Assembly (NCBI RefSeq): GCF_006345805.1
Contig: NC_043005.1
Span: 6,324,001-6,388,000 of the forward strand
DNA: 64,000 nt
Origin: Octopus sinensis
Lineage: Eukaryota
Direction: 5' to 3'
Shown: piece after piece, positions 167 through 64,000 of the stretch
How positions within the stretch are numbered: position 1 is the first letter of the stretch
Layout: each line of letters begins with the position of its first letter
The notes under the pieces: generated by a model
What the model was told of the DNA's origin: nothing
Database searches by the model: none
Seen by the model: only the letters and a program-made list of their open reading frames with translations
Translations under genes and position numbers: made by a program

Positions 167-731
167 ATACTTTGATACTTTGATAGGTTTCGGCCATTAT
201 TGGCCCAGGCCATGTCTAACTTAATAGCCACCACCTGGTGAAGTCTTTCAAGTCAAATTTGGGCCTATGGCCCACTCAAGTAGAGAGTATTGTTACAGAG
301 AACATTCCAGGTGTAGGGGGTTATCCTGGATGTCTTGAAGGACTCTGTCCAAAGACTCTTGAACCCTATAGGGTCAGTTTCGTTTTAATGTTTTTGGTGT
401 AATGTTAAAGAGAGCGGGGCCACTTGAGGTGAAAATAATTGTGCCGTTTTTGTTGTTATAAGATGAGAGTGCGATTTTTGTTTTGGGCGGATGGCACGGG
501 GCCCACCTGGATGTACCTTAAGGTGATGCCAACATCATTTGGGCAATGCTGATGGAATATTTTCCCCATCATGCGATGATGCAGCGCTCACGACGACGTT
601 GGAGAATAGAGTTTTAGCTTTTCTGCCGACCCCAATAGTCGAGGCCTGTCATGCCATCTATCTTTTTTGTGATTGCCCTTTGAGGTGCTTCACTTTTATA
701 ATACCTTGTATGTGTGGGGAGACCACAGTGG

Positions 732-738
<7 letters not shown>
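167..738 (-). mobile_element. CR1-group LINE (family A), 3' fragment, copy 1
   Basis: Colinear with 3973-4561 apart from many 1-bp indels. Minus-strand 3' tail is (TCAAAGTA)n. The 5' end is truncated at a (TA)n array. Confidence 0.85.
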
Positions 739-2070
<1,332 letters not shown>

Positions 2071-3683
2071 AAAAGCATGTAAGAGAGTCCTAGCAAGACC
2101 ACTGCAGTTCCTCTTTCAGAGCTTCCTTGCAGCTGGCAAAGTTCCAGGAAAACTGAAGGAAGGTAAATATGCCCCATTCATAAAGGAGGTAGCAGAGCGG
2201 AAGCCAAGACTATAGACCTATCTCCTGACCTCACACATCAGCAAGGTCATGGAACGAATAGTCAGAAGGAAGCTGATCACCTTGCTTGAAGAGAATGACT
2301 TGCTGCCCGACACCCAACATGGTTTCCGACCAGGGAGAAGCTGTTTAACTCAGCTCCTACACACTATGACTGTGTGCTGAAACGGCTGCTCAACCACTCA
2401 AATGTGGAAGTGATATATCTCGACTTTGCAAAGGCCTTTGATAAAGTCGATCATGGAATGATATGTCACAAACTGCGTGATCTCAACATAGTTGGAAAAC
2501 TGGGAGAATGGCTTCATGACTTTCTGAAGGATAGAAGTCAGGTGGTAGTAGCCAATGGGGCCACCTCCATTAACACACAAATAGTGAGCGGTGTTCCGCA
2601 GGGCACTGTTCTGGGACACTACTGTTCATAATGGCCCTCTCAGACATGCCCTCAGCCACGCAGAGAGCCACGATCACAAGTTATGCAGATGATACAAAAG
2701 TTTCACAGGCAATACAGAACCCTAGGACACTAAACACCTGCAATGTGAGCTGGACAAAATATACAAGTGGGCTGAAAGAATAGCATGCAGTTCAATGCTG
2801 GAAAGTTTCAAGCTTTATACTATCAGCATGCAAAACTGAATGCAATACCCAATGAATACACTGGACCCGAGGGATTGCAATCCCAGAGGCACAATCAGTG
2901 CGTGACCTGGGTATTCATGAGTGATGACGCGACCTTTCATGTACATGTTGCTAAACTGACAATGAAATGTAGACGGCTGGCTGGATGGATCCTTAGAACC
3001 TTAGAACAAGAGAACAAGAAACCATGATGGTCCTCTGGAAGACACTTGTCCTAAGCCACTTTGACTATTGCTCTCAGCTATGGTCACCATCCAGTGTCAA
3101 GTTGATCACAGAACTTGAGGCGATCCAACGAAGCTACACAAAGAAGATAGCCTCTATGCAGAATGTAAGCTACTGGGAAAGACTCAAGAGATTAAAATTA
3201 TATTCCCTGGAGCGTAGGCGGAAAGATATGCCATAATATACATCTGGAAGATCCTGGAGGGAAGTGTCCTGAACTTTGGCATCGAGAGTTACGCAATGCC
3301 AGAACTGGGCGCCCTGCGTGGTGCCTAGGACTACAAACCTGCCATCAAGATGTAGGACAAGATTCTGTGATAGCCTGGGCTTCCGAGGCCCACAGCTCTT
3401 CAATATCCTCCCGAAGAACCTGAGAGACCTGCATGGGGTGGATACAGATGTCTTTAAAATGAAGCTGGATCTCTTCCTGTCAGGTGTCCCAGATGAACCA
3501 ACTTCACGGCAGGAGGGGCAGATGAGGGCAGCTGCATCGAACTCTCTCATGCACCAAATAGCAGTTGCTAGAAAGCCTCCATGAAGTGAAACTAAGTAGC
3601 AACACCAAATGGCGGTGCCCCAGCATGGCCACAGCTCATAAGCTGAAACTAGAATCAGTCAGTCATCAGTCAGTCAGTCAGTC
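2071..3683 (+). mobile_element. CR1-group LINE (family B), 5'-truncated, frameshifted RT plus 3' UTR and (CAGT)n tail
   Basis: RT motifs IYLDFAKAFDKV, SGVPQGTVLG and SYADDTK (2679-2699). CR1-type C-terminus DYCSQLWSP, YWERLKRLKLYSLERRR, GPQLFNILP. Tandem CAGT tail at 3656-3683. Confidence 0.92.
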
Positions 3684-3729
3684 ATATATATATATATATA
3701 TGTTATATATATATATATGTATATATGTA

Positions 3730-3972: not shown

Positions 3973-4998
3973 TACTTTGATACTTTGATACTTTGATAGG
4001 TTTCGGCCATTATTGGCCCAGGCCATGTCTAACTTAATAGCACCACCACCTGGTGAAGTCTTTCAAGTCAGAATTGGGCACTATGGCCACTCAAGTAGAG
4101 AGTTATTGTTTACAGAGACATATCCGGTGTAGGGGGTTTATCCGGGATTTCTTGAAGGAATCTGTCCAAAGACTTCTTGAACCCTATAGGGTCAGTTTCT
4201 GTTTTAATGCGTTTTGGTGTAATGTTAAAGAGAGCGGGGCCAATTGAGGTGAAATAATTGTGCCGTATTGTTGTTATGAGATGAGAGTGCGATTTTGTTT
4301 TGGGCGGATGGCACGGGGCCCAAGCCTTGATGTACCTTAAAGGTGATGCCAACATCATTTGGGCAATGCTGATGGAATATTTTCCACATCAATGCAGATG
4401 ATGTAGCGCTCACGACGACGTTGGAGAGAATAGAGTTTTAGCTTTTCTAGTCGACCCCAATAGTCGAGGCCTGTCATGCCATCTATCTTTTTTGTGATTG
4501 CCCTTTGAGGTGCTTCGACTTTTATGATACCTTGTATTGTGTGGGGACCACAGTGGACAACAGTATTCAAGGTGGGGTCGGGCAAAAGTGGTGAAGAGAA
4601 GGATAATGTGTGGGATATCTCTCGACTGGAAAGTTCTGAGAATCCAGGACACACATTCTGCGGGCCATGTCAACTTTGGTGTTTATATGAGTGGCCCAGC
4701 TTACGTTGTTGTCCACAATTACTCCCAAGTCTCTGATGTTGTTGGACGCCGTGAGAGTTTCACCTGAAGGAAGGGAGTATGGGAGTTTCAGGGCATCCTC
4801 TTTTCCAAAGTGGATTAGCTCAAATTTATCCTCGTTCAGCAGCATATTGTTTTTTTTCTGGCCCATTGGATAACAGCCAGTAGATCTGACTGAAGGCATG
4901 TCCGGTCACTCGCCTCATTTATGACCTTCTGTAGCTTGGAGTCATCTGCAAAGATTTTTATGTTGCTGTGCTTGATGATGTCATTAATGTCATAATGT
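3973..4998 (-). mobile_element. CR1-group LINE (family A), 5'-truncated RT C-terminus, copy 2
   Basis: Minus strand gives IFADDSKL (about 4932-4955), RDLGVIVD, RPHLEYCCPLWSP, YSLQRRRERY and GPALFNITP, plus a (TCAAAGTA)n tail. Confidence 0.92.
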
Positions 4999-4999
4999 A

Positions 5000-5000
5000 A

Positions 5001-21933: not shown

Positions 21934-22243
21934 ATTAACATGCAAGTGGCTGAGCACTCCACAGACACGTGTACACTTAACGTAGTTCTCGGGGAGATTC
22001 AGCGTGACACAGAGTGTGACAAGGTTGGCCCCTTTGAAAATACAAGTACAACAGAAACAGGAAAGAAAGTGAGAGAAAGTTGTGGTGAAAGAGTACAACA
22101 GGGTTAACCACCAACCCCTGCCGGAGCCACGTGGAGCTTTAGGTGTTTTCGCTCAATATACACTCACAACATCCGGTCTGGGAATCGAAACCACGATTGC
22201 ACGACCGCGAGTCCGCTGCCCTAACCACTGGGCCATTGCGCCT

Positions 22244-28756: not shown

Positions 28757-29155
28757 AGGAGTGGCTGTATGGTAAGTAGCTTGTTTACCAACCACATGGT
28801 TCCGGGTTCAGTCCCACTGTGTGGCACCTTGGGCAAGTGTCTTCTACTATAGCCTCGGGCCGACCAAAGCCTTGTGAGTGGATTTGGTAGATGGAAACTG
28901 AAAGAAGTCCATCGTATATATGTATATATATATATGCATGTGTGTGTTTGTGTGTCTGTGTTTGTCCCCCCAACATTGCTTGACAACTGATGCTGGTGTG
29001 TTTATGTCCCCATCACTTAGTGGTTCGGCAAAATAGACCGATAGAATAAGTACTGGGCTTACAATGAATAAGTCTCGGGGTTGAGTTGCTTGATTAAAGG
29101 CGGTGCTCCAGCATGGCCGCAGTCAAATGACTGAAACAAGTAAAAGAGTAAGAGT
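28757..29155 (+). mobile_element. SINE family 1 (OK-like), full length
   Basis: A/B-box head (TGGCTGTATGGTAA, GGTTCAGTCC), conserved body, internal microsatellite, tail GGCGGTGCTCCAGCATGGCCGCAGTCAAATGACTGAAAC and (AAGAGT)n. Confidence 0.93.
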
Positions 29156-33361: not shown

Positions 33362-33752
33362 TTTACTGTTTTACTTGTTTCAGTCATTTGACTGCGGCCA
33401 TGCTGGAGCACCGCCTTTAATCAAGCAACTCGACCCCGGGACTTATTCTTTGTAAGCCCAGTACTTATTCTATCGGTCTCTTTTTGCCGAACCGCTAAGT
33501 GACGGGAACGTAAACACACCAGCATCGGTTGTCAAGCAATGCTAAGGGGACAAATACAGACACACAAACACACACGCATATATATATACATATATACAAC
33601 GGGCTTCTTCCAGTTTCCGTCTACCAAATCCACTCACAAGGCTTTGGTCGGCTCGAGGCTATAGTAGAAGACACTTGCCCAAGGTGCCACGTAGTGGGAC
33701 TGAACCCAGAACCATGTGGTTGGTAAACAAGTTACTTACCACACAGCCACTC
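33362..33752 (-). mobile_element. SINE family 1, full length, little diverged
   Basis: Reverse complement closely matches 28757-29155 and 48214-48708. Confidence 0.94.
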
Positions 33753-34063
33753 ATTTTAATTCTTTTTATTTATTTTTCTTATTGTAGTTCTTTATTCAGG
33801 TCTGTCTTGTGATTAAATATTTGCTGCCTTTGTACCAAACATATTTATGTTCTGTTCATTTTCTTTTTTTGTTTGTTTGTTTGTTATTTAGCAAGCTTTC
33901 CTTCCTGTTCTTTGGTAATTTAGATGAGGTGGGGGTCAGGGATGTGGGGGGCACCTCACCCATAATAATTACCAAGTTAGGGTTTGTTAAGTGCATCTGT
34001 TGTTTAATGTTATGAGTTTATATATATATGTATGTGTGTGTATGTGTGTATGTATGCATGTAA

Positions 34064-34589: not shown

Positions 34590-35140
34590 GTTTAGACCTA
34601 TGAAAGGTGTTCCAGCCATGACCAACCCATCATACTTTTAAATCTAAAAGGAAATACATTTTCCAATGTGTCCTTATTTTTCTTTTTAAGACTAAGGTAT
34701 GGTTTCAGGAGCAGATTTGACTGCTATTTCTAGCACATCGAAAGATTACATAGAGGTTTACTCGGATTGTTGCAGCTGCATTGTTGCTGTTTAAATCCTA
34801 GTCAATTGTGATTGAGTTGAATTATGATCAAAAGCATTCCAGTTGTGACCATCCCAATTAAAATTTTTTTTTTTTATCATCCAGTAGTCTGGACAAAACG
34901 CTGTGGCTGAGTTAACTCAGGGTTGAATCTTAGTCACAGCAGCCTCCCCTCAAATTGTATTGGCAATGCCCCAGCATGGCCACAGCCTCTAGCTGAAACT
35001 GATCAGAGGATAATAGAATAATATCAGAGGTATTAAATTGCTTAATGGATTCTTTAATTAAAATATGATGAAATTTGTGAGGGATTTGGTTGCTATTTCT
35101 ATTAGGCCAAGCAACATTATAAAAGCTCCCCAGGTGGCAC
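34590..35140 (+). mobile_element. Old unclassified repeat family (GCTATTTCTAGCA / TTCCAGCCATGACCA), two copies, second interrupted by a LINE-B-like tail
   Basis: The same motifs recur near 17650, 18500, 31040, 31720, 35200, 36290, 39050, 39260, 54800, 56760 and 58950. Confidence 0.7.
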
Positions 35141-44290: not shown

Positions 44291-44594
44291 ATCACGTGAT
44301 TACGTGACCGACCAGACCATCAGATGTTGCTACACATCGCTGGTCACAATGCGTTCGCATTGTTTTAGCCTTCGAATGACGCCACCCGCTGGCTAAGCGA
44401 GCAGGCCAACAGAAGAAAGAGTGAGAGAAAGAGTGGTGAAAGAGTACAGCTGGGATCACCACCCCCTGCCGGAGCCTCGTGGAGCTATTAGGTGTTTTCG
44501 CTAAATAAACACACACAACGCCCGGTCTGGGAATCGAAACCGCGATCCGACGACCGCGAGTCCGCTGCCCTAACCACTGGGCCATTGCGCCTCC
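44291..44594 (-). mobile_element. SINE family 3 head and body with tail type Y
   Basis: The first ~180 nt match 22065-22245; the tail differs and ends in TCACGTAATCACGTGAT. Confidence 0.88.
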
Positions 44595-45489: not shown

Positions 45490-46001
45490 TGCATGGTCGG
45501 GTCGTCGGCGACTAAACCGGCAACCCCACCAAGCTTGCTTGGTGAAGAGGGTGTTTATTGGACACCGCGGGATGAAAAACAAAACCCGTCAAAGGGCGGA
45601 GGAACTCTTGAGAGTCAATGGCCATCCAATAAATGTCTTAAGGATGTATCATGCGCGTTGGACATAGAAATAATCGAACTGAATACCCGATCGCGCGGTT
45701 AAACCATTGGGAGTGAAGGACTCCTAGCCTTTGTTAGGGCATCCTTCTAGGAGAAGGTAACTCAGGTAACTGGGATAACTCCGACATAAAACCTGCGGCT
45801 CAGTGGTTACCGATGATGTTGACTTGTTCTTCTTTTCGGATTATGGCTGCTGTTGCTTAGTGAGTGGGATTGACTCAGTGCACAGCTTTTCCTCACTTTT
45901 AAAAAAACTCTTCTTGCACAGGCATTGTAAGATAACATTGATTAAGCTTCGTGCAATGGCCATACTCGATAACGAGGGGGCAGCCACCACCATGTATGTA
46001 T
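45490..46001 (+). mobile_element. Non-coding RTE/RTEX-like non-autonomous retroelement with (TGTA)n tail
   Basis: GC-rich structured 5' region, AGGGCATCCTTCTAGGAGAAGG RTE-type UTR motif, ends in ATGTATGTATG. Abuts a (TGTA)n array. Confidence 0.55.
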
Positions 46002-46254
46002 GAACGTTGAAAAAAGCTACAATGTTTGCGAAGCCCTGACAGAGAGGCTCATGAGTTGGGTCAATATTCTGCAATCTCACCAGATTCGCAATGAGAAAAT
46101 CTTATTGAAATGGTGTCTGTTGGTGTTATTTGCAAAACGAGAGAGAAAAGAGAGAAAGTAAGAAGCTTTCTTTAAATATTGAAGTGTGTTAAGGTATGTT
46201 AAGTAAACAGGAAGTGTATACTTCTACCTCTTTTAATTAGATTGATATATATGA

Positions 46255-46360
46255 TATGGTATGGTATGTATATATATGTATGTATATATATATGTATGTA
46301 TGTGTGTATGTATGTATGTATGTATGTGTGTATGTATGTGTGTGTGTGTGTATGTATGTA

Positions 46361-46391
<31 letters not shown>

Positions 46392-46398
46392 GTGTGTG

Positions 46399-46432
<34 letters not shown>

Positions 46433-47512
46433 TGTATGTATGTATGTATGTATGTGTGTGTGTGTATGTATGTGTGTGTGTATGTATGTATGTATGTGTG
46501 TGTGTATGTATGTGTGTGTGTATGTATGTATGTATGTATGTGTGTATGTATGTATGTGTGTGTGTATGTATGTATGTATGTGTGTGTGTATGTATATGTG
46601 TGTGTGTATGTATGTATGTATGTGTGTATGTATGTATGTATGTATGTATGTATGTATGTGTGTATGTATGTATGTGTGTATGTATGTATGTATGTGTGTG
46701 TGTATGTATGTGTGTATGTATGTATGTATGTGTGTATGTATGTATGTATGTATGTGTGTGTGTATGTATGTATGTGTGTATGTATGTGTGTATGTATGTA
46801 TGTATGTATGTATGTGTGTGTGTATGTATGTATGTATGTATGTATGTATGTATGATGTATGTATGTATGAATGTATGTATGTTTGTGTGTATGTATGTAT
46901 GTATGTATGTATGAATGTATGTATGTTTGTGTGTATGTATGTATGTATGTATGATGTATGTATGTATGTATGTATGTATGTATGTATGTGTGTATGTATG
47001 TATGTGTGTATGTATGTATGTATGTATGTATGTGTGTGTGTATGTATGTGTGTATGTATGTGTGTATGTATGTATGTATGTATGTGTGCGTGTGTATATG
47101 TATGTGTGTGTGTATGTATGTATGTATGTGTGCGTGTGTATATGTATGTATGTGTGTATGTATGTATGTGTGTGTGTGTATGTATGTATGTATGTATGTA
47201 TGTATGTATGTGTGTATGTATGTATGTGTGTGTGTATGTATGTGTGTATGTATGTGTGTATGTATGTATGTATGTATGTGTGTTGTGTGTGTGTGTGTGT
47301 ATGTATGTGTGTATGTATGTGTGTATGTATGTATGTATATATGTGTGTGTGTATGTGTGTGTGTATGTATGTGTGTGTGTATGTATGTGTGTATGTATGT
47401 GTGTATGTATGTGTGTATGTGTGTATGTATGTATGTATGTGTGTATGTATGTATGCATGCATGTATATAGGTACGTACGTGTGTGTGTGTGTGTGTGTGT
47501 GTGCGTGCGTGC
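46255..47512. repeat. 1.25-kb (TATG)/(TG) microsatellite
   Basis: Directly visible. Confidence 0.98.
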
Positions 47513-47514
47513 GC

Positions 47515-47745
47515 GGAGGCGTATGGCTCAGTGGTTAGGGTGTTGCACTCATGACTGTAAGATTGTGATTTCGATTCCCGGACAGGGCGGTGTGTTGCGT
47601 TCTTGAGCTAGACATTTCATTTCCTGTTGCTCTAATTCACTCAGGTAATCCTGTGTTGGACAGGTGTCCTGTCCAGGTAGGGAATATATACGCCACGGAA
47701 TCTGGGAAACCAGACTTATGAGGTCAGGAAGAACCTTTGATCTCT
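47515..47745 (+). mobile_element. tRNA-headed SINE, body B plus tail Z
   Basis: TGGCTCAGTGGTTAG A-box, TTCGATTCC B-box, TTCTTGAGCTAGACATTTCATTTC body. Confidence 0.8.
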
Positions 47746-48213
47746 TTTGAGATATATAATCTTGCACGCACAGGCTACTTACTCTGGTTCTTTACATTCT
47801 GAGTTCAAATACTGCTAATGCCAAATATACCTTTCATCTTTCTGGCGATGATAAAATTAAATAACAGTCATCCGTTTGGTTCAATATGATCGATTACACC
47901 TTCTTCCCCACCCCAAACTGGTAAAAAATGTAAAAGCAAAAATCAATATTACTTTTCAATAGATTTGTTATCGAACTGGCTTCAAATGTTTCTTTTTTTT
48001 TTTTTCAAGGTACCAAACTGGATTCGAACTTGTAAGCTTTGTCTTTAATCTAAGAGAAATACATGCATCAGTGATCTAGGAAAATATAGCATTATGACTA
48101 CTGGTTTAGGAACAAAGGTTCACTGTTTAAATTCAAACTGATGTTGATTAGGGGTCAACCCGATTGAAACGCAGTGTAAATGTAATTTATAATAAAAAAA
48201 TATACTCCCCCAA

Positions 48214-59877: not shown

Positions 59878-60123
59878 TGTATGTATGTATGTATGTGTGT
59901 GTGTATGTATGTATGTATGTATGTATGTATGTATGTATGTATGTATGTGTGTGTGTATGTATGTATGTATGTATGTATGTATGTATGTATGTATGTATGT
60001 ACGTGTGTATGTATGTATGTATGTATGTTTGTATGTATGTATGTATGTATGTATGTATGTATGTATGTATGTATGTGTGTGTGTATGTATGTATGTATGT
60101 GTGTGTGTATGTATGTATGTATG

Positions 60124-60245
60124 TATACGAAGGAGTGCTAAAATTTTCCTGGCTTTGGATAAAATAAAATACAGAAGGGTCAGTTAATTGTGATTTCATA
60201 CAAACACATTCCACTTTGAGATTTATACACTTATTGCAGCAGTCT
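60124..60245 (+). mobile_element. Left half of the mariner-like MITE family
   Basis: TACGAAGGAGTGCTAAAATTTTCCTGGCTTTGG resembles 49127-49160. Confidence 0.6.
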
Positions 60246-60333
60246 TTGCTTGTATATACGCAGTGAAGCTATACAATAGCGTCGTATTTATTACGATTGT
60301 TATTTTCCAGTAAATATTGGTGCCTTGTACCAT

Positions 60334-60422
<89 letters not shown>

Positions 60423-60433
60423 ATCTATATATA

Positions 60434-60471
<38 letters not shown>

Positions 60472-60479
60472 TATATTAT

Positions 60480-60529
<50 letters not shown>

Positions 60530-60573
60530 TTATGTCATTGTTCAGTTTTATTTCAAGATTTCTTGTCAATGGA

Positions 60574-60623
60574 GAAAGAGCCGGTTTCCTACCTAGATTT
60601 GAGGGTCTTTCACTGGAATTTCA
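60574..60623 (-). ncRNA. Highly degenerate hammerhead-like motif
   Basis: Minus strand: CCAGTGA...GAAA-CCGG-CT with palindromic stem III. Several core changes. Confidence 0.3.
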
Positions 60624-60685
60624 ACATCAACAACAGAGTTTTTTGTCTCTCTCTATGTATGAGTGAGAGAGTAGTGCATGCCATC

Positions 60686-61346
60686 ATGTATGTATGTACA
60701 TATGTACGTATGCGTGTATGTATGTATGTTTGTATGTATGTTTGTATGTATGTACGTATGTATGTATGTATGTATATATGTATGTATGTATGTATGTATG
60801 CATGTATGTATGTATGTTTGTATGTATGTATGTATGTATATATGTACGTATGTATGTGTGTGTGCGTGCATGCATGTATGTATGTATGTATGTGCATGTA
60901 TGTTTGTATGTATGTATGTATATTATGTATGTATGTATGTATGTATGTATGTATGTATGTATGTATGATGAGTATATGTGTATGTATGTATGTATGTGTG
61001 TATGTATGTACGTATGTATGTGTGTGTGCGTGCATGCATGTAGTATGTATGTATGCAGTATGTTGTATGTATGTATGTATGTATGTACGTATATATGTAT
61101 GTATTATGTATGTATGTAGTATGTTGTTGTATGTATGTATGTATGTTGTATGTATGTATGTATGTATGTATGTACGATATATGTACGTATGTATGTGCGG
61201 TGCGTGAATGTATGTATGTATGTATGTATGGATGTATGTATGTATGTATGTATGTATGATGTATGTATTATGTATGCATGCGTGCATGCATGTATGTAGT
61301 ATGTATGTATGTATGTTTGTATGTATGTATGTATGTATGTATGTAC

Positions 61347-61377
<31 letters not shown>

Positions 61378-61633
61378 TGCATGTACGTATGTATGTACGT
61401 ATGTATGTATGTATGTATGTATGTATGTTGTATGTATGTATGTATGTATGTATGTACATATGTATGTAGTATGTATGTAGTATGTATGTACGTATGTATG
61501 TACGTATGTATATGTATGTATGTATGCATGTATGTAGTATGCATGTATGTATGTATGTATGCATGTATGTATGTATGCATGTATGTATGTATGTATGCAT
61601 GCGTGCATGCATGTATGTATGTATGCATGTATG

Positions 61634-61665
<32 letters not shown>

Positions 61666-62878
61666 TGTATGTACGTATGTATGTACGTATGTATGTATGT
61701 ATGTATGTATGTATGTATGTATGTATAGCATGTATGTATGTAGTATGATGTATGTATGTTTGTATGTATGTATGTATGTATGTATGTATGTATGTATGTA
61801 TGTATGCATGTAGTATGTATGCATGTATGTATGTATGTATGTTTGTATGTATGTATGTTTGTATGTATGTATGTATGCATGTATGTATGTATGTATTGTA
61901 TGTATGTATGTATGCATGTATGTATGTATGCATGTATGTATGTATGTATGTTTGTATGTATGTATGTATGTACGTATGTATGTACGTATGTATGTATGTA
62001 TGTATGTGTATGTATGTATGTATGTACGTATGTATGTAGTATGTATGTATGTACGTATGTATGTATGTATGTATGTATGTATGTATGTATGTATGTAGTA
62101 TGTATGCATGTATGGTGTATGTATGTATGTATGTATGTTTGTATGTATGTATGTTGCATGTATGTATGTATGTATGTATGTATGTATGCATGTATTATGT
62201 ATGCATGTATGTATGTAGTGTGATGTATGTATGTATGTATGTATGTATGTTGGTATGTATGACGTATGTATGTATGTATGTATGTATGTATGTATGTATG
62301 TATGCAGTATGTATGTATGTATGTATGTATGTATGTATGTTTGTATGTATGTACGTATGTATGTATGTATGTATGTATGTATGTATGTATGTATGTATGC
62401 ATGTATGTATGTATGTATGTATGTATGTATGTATGTTTGTATGTATGTACGTATGTATGTATGTATGTATGTATGTATGTATGTATGTATGCATGTATGT
62501 ATGTATGTATGTATGTATGTATGTTTGTATGTATGTATGTATGCATGTATGTATGTATGCATGTATGTATGTATGTATGTTTGTATGTATGTATGTATGT
62601 ATGTATGTATGTATGCATGTATGTATGTATGTATGTATGTATGTATGTATGTATGTATGTATGTATGTATGCATGCATGTATGTATGTATGTATGTATGT
62701 ATGTATGTATGTATGTATGTATGTATGTATGTATGCATGTATGTATGTATGCATGTATGTATGTATGTATGTATGTATGTATGCATGTATGTATGTATGT
62801 ATGCATGTATGTATGTATGCATGTATGTATGTATGTATGTATGTATGTATGTATGTACGTGTGTATGTATGTACGTAT
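60686..62878. repeat. 2.2-kb (TATG)n with TACG/CATG/TTTG variants
   Basis: Directly visible; source of the 758-aa pseudo-ORF. Confidence 0.98.
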
Positions 62879-63504
62879 ACAAACATATATGAGTGTGTTT
62901 GTGTGTTTATAGTTAGGCAGCGAAATAGATAGATAGCTAGATAGACAGACAGACAGACAGATAGAGACAGGTATATAGATGGGGAGATATCAATTCCAAC
63001 TGCATCCTTTAAAAAGAAAACCTAATTTACAGTTTTTATTTATTGTTTTTGCTTTCTTTTTTTTTTTTTACCAGGATAGTTATTTTCACCAGAGAATGGT
63101 CATTTCCTTCAGGAATATTTACAGGAAGAGAAACAAATTGTAGTGTGGGTGGCAGAGCGTGCACTTGAGACTTGAAAGAAAACAGCTAGGAAGCCCTGCC
63201 TGCAAGTTCTTTTTGCTTGCAGGAAAATTTACTGACGTCACCTAATGATTTCAAGAAAGCAATGAACGCAAACCATTCCCGTTTTCTCCTTCTTCCCTCT
63301 TCTCTCTCCCCCTCTCTCTCACACACACACACAATTTATAAATACATTAGAGTGTTACCATTGATGTGAAGGGTAACTCTGGAAGTTATATATTTACCAT
63401 CAAGGGTAATATCAGGAAATACAGCATACGTTATATATCAGAATTATAATTTGACTTTCATCAAATTTCTTGGTGCTTATGCATAATGACGAAAAAAATA
63501 TAAA

Positions 63505-63705
63505 TTTGGTTGACGGAAACTGAATTGTGTGTGTGTGTGTGACAATCGGTGTTGATTTGTTTACTTCCCTGCAACTAGTAGTTTGGCAAAGCGACCCACA
63601 GAATAAATACCGGGCTTAGAAATCAGTACTGCGATCAACTTGTTCGATTAAAACCCTTCAAGGCGGTGCCCCAGCATGGCCGCAGCTCTATGACTGCATA
63701 AGTTC
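63505..63705 (+). mobile_element. SINE family 1, 3' part, diverged
   Basis: GACGGAAACTGAA...GGCGGTGCCCCAGCATGGCCGCAG. Confidence 0.8.
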
Positions 63706-63754
63706 AAACTCTGCATAAGGAGTAGACAACCACCATATATATATATATATATAT

Positions 63755-63976
63755 ATTTCAGGATGGTCATTTCTTTTTGTTTTTGCCAAATAAACACACG
63801 CACTACATTTTCGTTCTTGACTATAGCTTTATTATTGTTTTTATTCTAGTATTTAGTCCAGAACGGACTAAACAGAGAATCGCCGAGGAAGCCACAGGAT
63901 GTGTAACGAAAGATTACAGGCGGAGGACACGAAAATAAGAACACTAAAGAAGAAATAAACTGACCATCCCGAAATG
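63755..63976. repeat. Short element with inverted ends
   Basis: ATTTCAGGATGGTCA / TGACCATCCCGAAAT; internal TTTAGTCC / GGACTAAA hairpin. Confidence 0.55.
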
Positions 63977-64000
63977 TAACAATATCTGTTTCAACACACG

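What the first reader, a model, noticed from the sequence alone, without database searches (positions are those of the whole stretch)
3611..3649. Partner LINE of the dominant SINE: shared 3' tail with compensatory base pairs
Seen: LINE B ends GGCGGTGCCCCAGCATGGCCACAGCTCATAAGCTGAAAC and SINE family 1 (29099-29137) ends GGCGGTGCTCCAGCATGGCCGCAGTCAAATGACTGAAAC, 30/39 identical without gaps. Most differences fall in one hairpin, CAGCT-CATA-AGCTG versus CAGTC-AAAT-GACTG, with two swapped pairs preserving a 5-bp stem and 4-nt loop. Established: stringent-type LINEs (CR1, L2) recognise a 3' stem-loop that partner SINEs copy. Inference: this LINE lineage mobilises the SINE. I cannot tell whether the pairing is already published.
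Basis: partly seen in the sequence, partly recalled or inferred. Interest (0 to 1): 0.8.

Follow-up and report, generated by a model that had tools for sequence, protein, structure and literature searches.

The report
Octopod SINE borrows LINE clade's tail
A very abundant short repeat in a genome that is likely an octopod's ends in the same predicted two-hairpin RNA tail as a whole group of related retrotransposons, which likely copy it; the flagged LINE is the least similar of six such families, and a second short repeat has taken over its exact tail.

Summary
The tail is the true 3' end of LINE B: all 30 loci found with a tail-less query carry it. It folds into two hairpins, not one. It is not specific to LINE B: five more families of the same LINE clade (C-G) end in it, and across 12 representatives 97.9% of cells pair, with three pairs changed on both sides. 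LINE B is the poorest match to the dominant SINE (34-35/51 with terminal repeats). For the young and mid SINE subfamilies E is best (43-44/51), then F and G (42-43). So the SINE's tail likely derives from the clade's ancestor or the E/F/G side, and the swapped pairs likely arose on B's branch. Which family supplies the enzyme is unresolved; B's lineage overlaps in age. A second, young tRNA-SINE carries B's stem and terminal repeat (6 of 30 loci), and 13 of 24 LINE-derived insertions are tail only. A known kind of SINE/LINE pair; I found no octopod case in the papers I could search. Mobilisation is untested.

The parts
2070..3684 (+). LINE B copy, 5'-truncated, flanked by (AT)n on both sides; about 98% identical to other copies
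2070..3584 (+). ORF2 remnant (RT domain and C-terminus), frameshifted in this copy; stop at 3582-3584
   Evidence: open 951-codon frame in L078
3611..3630 (+). Tail hairpin 1 (7 pairs, one G.G mismatch, 4-nt loop); predicted; almost invariant across families
3632..3645 (+). Tail hairpin 2 of LINE B (CAGCT-CATA-AGCTG); predicted; two pairs differ on both sides from SINE, D and E
3650..3684 (+). Terminal tetranucleotide repeats of LINE B ((AATC)n in other copies); unlike the SINE's
28757..29155 (+). SINE1 copy (young subfamily; about 6 nt short at the 5' end): tRNA-like head, CORE-like motif, internal microsatellite, LINE tail
28762..28773 (+). A-box-like motif of the SINE head
   Evidence: (other copies); consensus recalled
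28805..28815 (+). B-box-like motif; did not pass the one-mismatch pattern in six other copies
   Evidence: by eye; negative
28827..28833 (+). CCTTGGG, the motif shared by CORE and Ceph domains
   Evidence: PMC5786205 passage
29099..29137 (+). Shared tail of SINE1: hairpin 1 (29099-29118), hairpin 2 CAGTC-AAAT-GACTG (29120-29133); predicted
29138..29155 (+). SINE terminal repeats (AAAAGAGT type), same type as LINE F; the AAAAGAAT type of older copies matches E and G
33364..33755 (-). Second young SINE1 copy with the same tail (33377-33415)
4000..4047 (-). Tail of LINE A, a distant relative (about 35% ORF2 identity to B) with a longer hairpin 1 and a GGCCA-ATAA-TGGCC hairpin 2
   Evidence: (weak, z -1.2)

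Best explanation
The dominant SINE ends in a 39-nt tail, predicted to fold into two hairpins, that it likely took from an ancestor of a LINE clade (families B-G here), and ORF2 proteins of that clade likely recognise it and copy the SINE. Shown: the tail is the 3' end of six LINE families and of two unrelated SINE heads; its stems keep their pairing while loop 2 and the linker change; LINE B has the most changed version. Inferred: the SINE's stem and terminal repeat are near the ancestral state (same stem in D and E on both sides of the best-supported split; same terminal repeat in F and G), so the two swapped pairs arose on B's branch. Inferred: recognition rests on hairpin 1 and stem 2 rather than loop 2, so several families could have served in turn (E and older B subfamilies for the young wave). 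Inferred: reverse transcription often ends or switches template at the 5' edge of hairpin 1, which is how SINEs pick the tail up. From known systems: Pol III transcription of the head, ORF2p binding in trans, target-primed reverse transcription from the terminal repeats. None of this was tested by experiment.
For: Tail at the end of B, C, D, E, F, G. Fold. Pairing 97.9%, 3 pairs changed on both sides, covariation score above 500 of 500 shuffles and above all slid controls. Identity to SINE subfamilies over 51 nt: B 34-35, C 35-38, D 39-41, E 40-44, F 41-43, G 41-43. Tree: B-G apart from A and outside proteins, support 96; B+C+D 99. Oldest SINE subfamily (median 19.3% from its majority) predates all six families (0-11.3%). 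At least six loops occur on the B stem among the first 100 of 8,761 exact matches. SINE-LINE likeness begins at the first base of hairpin 1, where 13 of 24 B-stem LINE insertions also begin. A second SINE carries B's stem and terminal repeat, copies 0.5-2% apart. (AT)4 within 80 nt downstream: SINE 15/60, B 19/39, E 12/35, C 14/15, random 506/5000.
Against: No family with the SINE's exact loop was found: 0 genome-wide matches for the B/D/E-type coding motif plus SINE hairpin (the same frame with a free loop hit 29/30 B, 16/30 E, only 1/30 D loci, and G-type motifs would be missed). In zebrafish L2 elements loop swaps abolish retrotransposition (PMC4176376 passages), which argues for stricter pairing. 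Two of five covariation measures did not beat the shuffles (319/500, 476/500), rows are related and hand-picked, and five hairpin-1 pairs never vary. Young family C has the bottom pair of stem 2 broken (z -0.6). E/F/G branching is unresolved (38-46), so 'ancestral' is soft. LINE ages come from top hits and are biased young.
Confidence: 0.78

Rival explanations
1. One reading: the B lineage is the working partner and drove the recent SINE waves in trans, although the SINE kept an older tail. Compatible with the clade-level reading; it differs in naming the motor.
For: 8,761 exact B-stem tails against 123 for the D/E pattern (71, 41; part of the 8,761 are the second SINE); B subfamilies form a series up to 15% apart, and same-loop copies are 3-6% apart, like young SINE copies; loop 2 is free in B.
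Against: Worst tail match of six families, different terminal repeat. No SINE1 pair under 1.6% among 90 full copies while top B and C copies are at 0.0% median. No SINE1 inside 100 kb of B copies scanned (overlapping loci, so fewer unique bases), against 2 in 24 kb of F and 1 in 17 kb of G; but also 0 in C, D and E. No SINE1 body on a B-type tail in 30 loci, one on an E-type tail in 30.
Confidence: 0.3
2. Recognition is strict and the SINE has one partner: family E, or an unsampled sister with the SINE's own loop.
For: E shares stem 2, the hairpin-1 loop and the terminal repeat type; E copies are 4.3% (pattern-found, n=17) and 3.9% (top hits, n=30) from their majority, close to the young SINE subfamily at 3.6%; one SINE1 body sits on an E-type tail (L214).
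Against: E differs at 3 of 4 loop bases; at most 123 exact tails against 90,438 for the SINE; SINE subfamilies span 1.6-34% divergence, wider than E's 2.4-9.6%; the exact-loop search found nothing.
Confidence: 0.3
3. The tail is a relic of an old capture and the SINE is now copied by an unrelated LINE such as the RTE elements that expanded in octopuses.
For: RTE-BovB is the LINE family reported as expanded in octopuses (PMC8967140 passages) and is reported as likely active (PMC9115989 passages).
Against: Both hairpins are intact in all three SINE subfamily majorities, whose changes fall in loops and one wobble position; the SINE ends exactly like the clade's LINEs; a second SINE took the same tail recently.
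Confidence: 0.08
4. Chance likeness, or a SINE fragment inserted behind this one LINE copy.
For: Only 39 nt, 77% identical.
Against: Every B locus examined has it; five sister families have their own versions; backwards-pattern controls give 0.
Confidence: 0.01

Closest known systems
Bivalve BivaV-SINE2 and BivaCORE-SINE1 with CR1-14_CGi; Vhc_1 SINEs with CR1-1/-14_CGi (PMC4824008, PMC4758252; passages read)
   Same: Molluscan tRNA-SINEs that share a 3' stem-loop with a LINE, with compensatory changes, inferred from sequence alone.
   Different: Other class of mollusc. I could not compare tail sequences (figures not held; supplement part 1 of 4 read). Here six sister LINE families and two SINE heads are resolved, with two hairpins.
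Eel UnaL2/UnaSINE and zebrafish ZfL2-1/-2 (PMC4176376 passages; PMC3747384 passages and Table 1)
   Same: Stem-loop plus terminal microsatellite at the 3' end of an EN-RT LINE; SINE mobilisation through the common tail was tested there.
   Different: There the loop is the identity element; here loop 2 varies freely between close subfamilies while hairpin 1 is fixed. No experiment here.
Passerine TguSINE1/PittSINE with CR1-X (PMC5729268 passages)
   Same: Partner chosen among LINE subfamilies by diagnostic tail bases and age overlap; new SINE born by template switch.
   Different: There a head was swapped; here an existing SINE head swapped its tail, at the edge of hairpin 1.
Octopus OK, OR1, OR2 SINEs (Ohshima and Okada 1994; paper not held, seen only as cited) and the tRNA-Core class of PMC8967140
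   Same: Octopod tRNA-derived SINE with a CORE-type motif and very high copy number; SINE1 is probably one of these known families.
   Different: Identity untested: no published sequence was available. None of the passages I read names a partner LINE for them.

Membership tests
SINE/LINE pair with a common 3' tail | SINE 3' end homologous to the 3' end of a LINE family, in many copies of both | tested here: met
SINE/LINE pair with a common 3' tail | Conserved stem-loop with compensatory changes | tested here: met
   (3 pairs; related, hand-picked rows; 2 of 5 measures not above shuffles)
SINE/LINE pair with a common 3' tail | Same terminal repeat in SINE and LINE | tested here: not met
   not met for LINE B; met for E, F, G and for the second SINE with a B subfamily
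SINE/LINE pair with a common 3' tail | Overlapping activity in time | tested here: inconclusive
   E and older B subfamilies overlap the young SINE wave; samples small and biased
Stringent-type LINE | Tail needed for retrotransposition and bound by ORF2p; SINE mobilised in trans | not testable with these tools
   needs a cell assay
CR1/L2 group of LINEs | Two ORFs; ORF2 with AP endonuclease and RT, no RNase H; microsatellite 3' end (definition recalled) | tested here: met
   Pfam Exo_endo_phos_2 and RVT_1, no other domain family; ORF1 with weak CCCH and Myb hits below cut-off
CR1/L2 group of LINEs | Placement in a named clade (CR1, L2, Crack, Daphne) on an RT tree with reference elements | not testable with these tools
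   no named references among 120 listed relatives
CORE-SINE (tRNA-derived) | tRNA-like head with A and B boxes | tested here: inconclusive
   tRNA-like only at a relaxed ARAGORN threshold in 6 of 6 copies; A box found, B box not within one mismatch; default ARAGORN and Rfam negative
CORE-SINE (tRNA-derived) | Central CORE domain | tested here: inconclusive
   7-nt hallmark present; no CORE reference to align
Octopus OK/OR1/OR2 | Sequence identity to the published families | not testable with these tools
   paper and SINEBase supplements not held

The most novel reading that the evidence does not exclude
In this LINE clade the two-hairpin tail is a portable module of about 40 nt: about half of the insertions stop at its 5' edge because ORF2p protects just this stretch or leaves the template there, and the same edge is where unrelated SINE heads and tRNAs are joined on. 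With loop 2 free, one SINE rode successive LINE lineages for a long time, which would explain the octopod SINE expansion and map the protein's footprint from genome data alone.
Probability: 0.3. Interest if true: 0.65.

Novelty: new member of a known kind. Interest (0 to 1): 0.4.

Why it matters
SINEs are the largest repeat class of octopus genomes (PMC8967140 passages), and I saw no partner LINE named for them. This gives a candidate enzyme source, a near-complete open ORF2 (L078) and a natural series of tail variants for testing which part of a LINE tail is read, plus a young SINE family whose tail swap can be located to a few bases. The principle itself has been known since the 1990s, with 58 pairs listed in PMC3747384.

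Tried and rejected
ARAGORN default and Rfam found nothing at threshold. A genome-wide pattern for a LINE with the SINE's exact loop gave 0. Relatives outside the B-G clade: none of 16 metagenome loci inspected showed the tail motif, and among all 80 there were only two loose core hits upstream of the RT match; few of these loci reach the 3' end, so this is weak. Nesting test too small to decide. Earlier scan findings: nothing returned. My interim readings that D, then E alone, then F alone was the partner were dropped: D and F/G are older than the young SINE wave (two F and one G copy contain young SINEs), and E has few copies and a different loop. Target-site duplications were not examined. 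Papers not held: the id tried for Gilbert and Labuda 1999, Albertin 2015, Ohshima and Okada 1994.

Full report
Observation. Window 3611-3649 and 29099-29137 are 30/39 identical without gaps. The 20-nt core has 14 matches in the window and none in 100 shuffles.

The LINE. The copy at 2070-3684 is a 5'-truncated, frameshifted LINE between AT repeats. The window's genome (G000, 2.72 Gb) gave 1364 candidates; all 30 fetched loci end in the same tail followed by (AATC)n. With a query lacking the tail, 26 of 30 loci have it exactly and 4 with small changes (the two sets overlap, include the window and three loci with identical flanks). Of 20 longer stretches, six reach about 5.4-5.7 kb with a shared 5' region, and L078 has an open frame of 951 codons with endonuclease and RT domains; ORF1 has weak CCCH and Myb hits below cut-off. 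That anatomy fits the CR1/L2 group (definition recalled); the clade cannot be named here. The nearest named relative among 120 listed is from Argonauta hians, 64%, so the host is likely an octopod (inference).

The SINE. In 800 kb of evenly spaced stretches plus the window there are 131 tail cores: 102 behind the SINE body, 2 behind ORF2, 27 unassigned, most of which look like older SINE copies. Genome-wide there are 90,438 exact SINE-type tails, control 0. The head is tRNA-like only at a relaxed threshold (6 of 6 copies) and carries the CCTTGGG motif of CORE domains. Three rough subfamilies lie at median 3.6% (n=26), 9.9% (n=57) and 19.3% (n=18) from their column majority. It is probably one of the octopus families described in 1994; I could not test that.

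The tail belongs to a clade. Looking for LINEs with a SINE-like stem turned up five more families: C (20 loci), D (30 loci, about 26 with the tail), E (30 loci: 27 whole tails, 3 partial, tail-less query), F (30 loci) and G (25 loci); the C and G queries included the tail. Their ORF2 C-terminal halves are 68-82% identical; B-G stand apart from LINE A and outside proteins with support 96, B+C+D group with 99, E/F/G are unresolved (rows are column majorities). Hairpin 2 is CAGTC/GACTG in D, E and the SINE, CAGCT/AGCTG in B, CAGCC/GGCTG in F and G, CGGCC/GGCTA in C. Over tail plus 12 nt of terminal repeat, identity to the young SINE is B 34, C 35, D 39, G 42, E 43, F 43 of 51; to the mid subfamily B 34, E 44; to the old one B 35, D/F/G 41. 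B is last each time. Since D and E share the SINE's stem across the best-supported split, and F and G its terminal repeat, I infer that the SINE keeps a near-ancestral tail and that the two swapped pairs arose on B's branch. The oldest SINE copies are older than any of the six families as sampled (0-11.3%; top hits, biased young). No LINE with the SINE's exact loop was found (limits shown).

Covariation. On 12 natural copies chosen to stand for families, 97.9% of cells pair and three pairs change on both sides, one of them in hairpin 1 (family F); cells changed on both sides and the covariation score beat all 500 shuffles and all slid controls, but the counts of pairs and pair types did not (319 and 476 of 500), five pairs never vary, and the rows are related. 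Family C, young and abundant, has one stem-2 pair broken. Loop 2 is free: the first 100 of 8,761 exact B-stem matches show at least six loops. This differs from zebrafish L2, where loop swaps abolish activity (PMC4176376, passages).

Who supplies the enzyme. E matches best and is the right age (3.9% top hits; 4.3% for 17 pattern-found copies) but is small (at most 123 exact tails). The B lineage is large and long-lived, with copies up to 15% apart and same-loop copies 3-6% apart, so it overlaps the young SINE wave, though the newest B and C burst (0.0% median) has no SINE counterpart among 90 full copies (closest pair 1.6%; 7 of 90 with under 1% private changes). Nesting is uninformative for B, C, D, E (0 each) and shows young SINEs inside two F copies and one G copy. 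All types are followed by AT repeats more often than random (SINE 15/60, B 19/39, E 12/35, C 14/15, random 506/5000), which fits a shared endonuclease but does not pick a family. I therefore commit to the clade, not to B.

Two additions. First, 6 of 30 B-stem loci are a second SINE: another tRNA-like head joined to B's tail at a short stretch of likeness just upstream of hairpin 1, with a terminal repeat like that of a B subfamily, five full copies 0.5-2% apart. The same head occurs with at least five other tails (output partly cut). This is B's clearest SINE partner. Second, of the other 24 loci 13 are tail only, beginning within a few bases of hairpin 1, and 11 carry LINE body; of 30 E-stem loci 10 are tail only or nearly, 17 carry body, one has a SINE1 body, two lie behind tRNA-like sequence (sorted by eye). 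These loci are the first 30 by position and require an exact 29-nt match. The peak may reflect a protein footprint or pause, or simply microhomology between the AAT before the tail and AT-rich targets; I cannot separate these.

What is known. Shared tails are a standard arrangement: 58 pairs, none from a mollusc, in Table 1 of PMC3747384 (passages and table read); bivalve SINE-CR1 pairs with compensatory changes followed (PMC4824008 passages and part 1 of 4 of the supplement; PMC4758252 passages). Passages of PMC8967140, PMC9115989, PMC9223172, PMC5804259, PMC5786205, PMC3531059 and PMC5729268 name no partner for an octopus SINE. Nine searches listed no such paper. Not seen: Ohshima and Okada 1994 and 2005, Gilbert and Labuda 1999, Albertin 2015, SINEBase supplements, Repbase and Dfam; any of these may already hold the pairing.

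Verdict. Real and correctly seen; the partner is mis-specified. New member of a known kind. Interest 0.4: a useful, testable lead on the engine of the octopod SINE expansion, with a tail-only insertion peak and a recent tail capture as the less ordinary parts.

Noticed in passing
L336, L340, L344, L351, L355, L359 (each about 1325-1560 in tail orientation): Young second SINE: tRNA-like head plus LINE B tail; 8 of the first 100 B-stem matches have its loop type, so perhaps several hundred copies.
   Followed up: partly
window 44433-44592 (-) and 22080-22243 (-): Two copies of the parent of that second SINE, each with a different tail; the head occurs with at least five other tails whose LINEs were not sought.
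   Followed up: no
L333-L362 and L188-L217: Tail-only insertions starting at the 5' edge of hairpin 1: 13 of 24 B-stem and about 10 of 30 E-stem loci.
   Followed up: partly
L197 about 1410-1530; L203; L214: tRNA-Glu-like sequence directly before an E tail; tRNA-like sequence before a short E 3' end; SINE1 body on an E-type tail. Chimeras or adjacent insertions.
   Followed up: partly
window 4000-5000 (-) and 187-735 (-): LINE A, two copies, about 35% ORF2 identity to B, with a related tail and a different terminal repeat; another copy in L206.
   Followed up: partly
L356:1501-1539 (-): Copy with C-type flanks but the B-type stem, suggesting C's stem changed again from a B-like state.
   Followed up: no
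window 34962-34999 (+): G-like tail with a 3-nt loop and an upstream region that matches nothing else held.
   Followed up: partly
L061:5586-6398; L064, L065, L073, L074: LINE B ORF1 has Myb-like and CCCH-like stretches; the long 5' UTR holds AT-rich tandem repeats; full-length copies start directly after AT repeats.
   Followed up: no
L016, L017, L018; L305, L306; L270, L273: Copies with identical flanks: local duplications rather than independent insertions.
   Followed up: no
window 46001-48000 and 60001-64000: Strong GC and AT skew, probably simple repeats; 100 N in the window.
   Followed up: no
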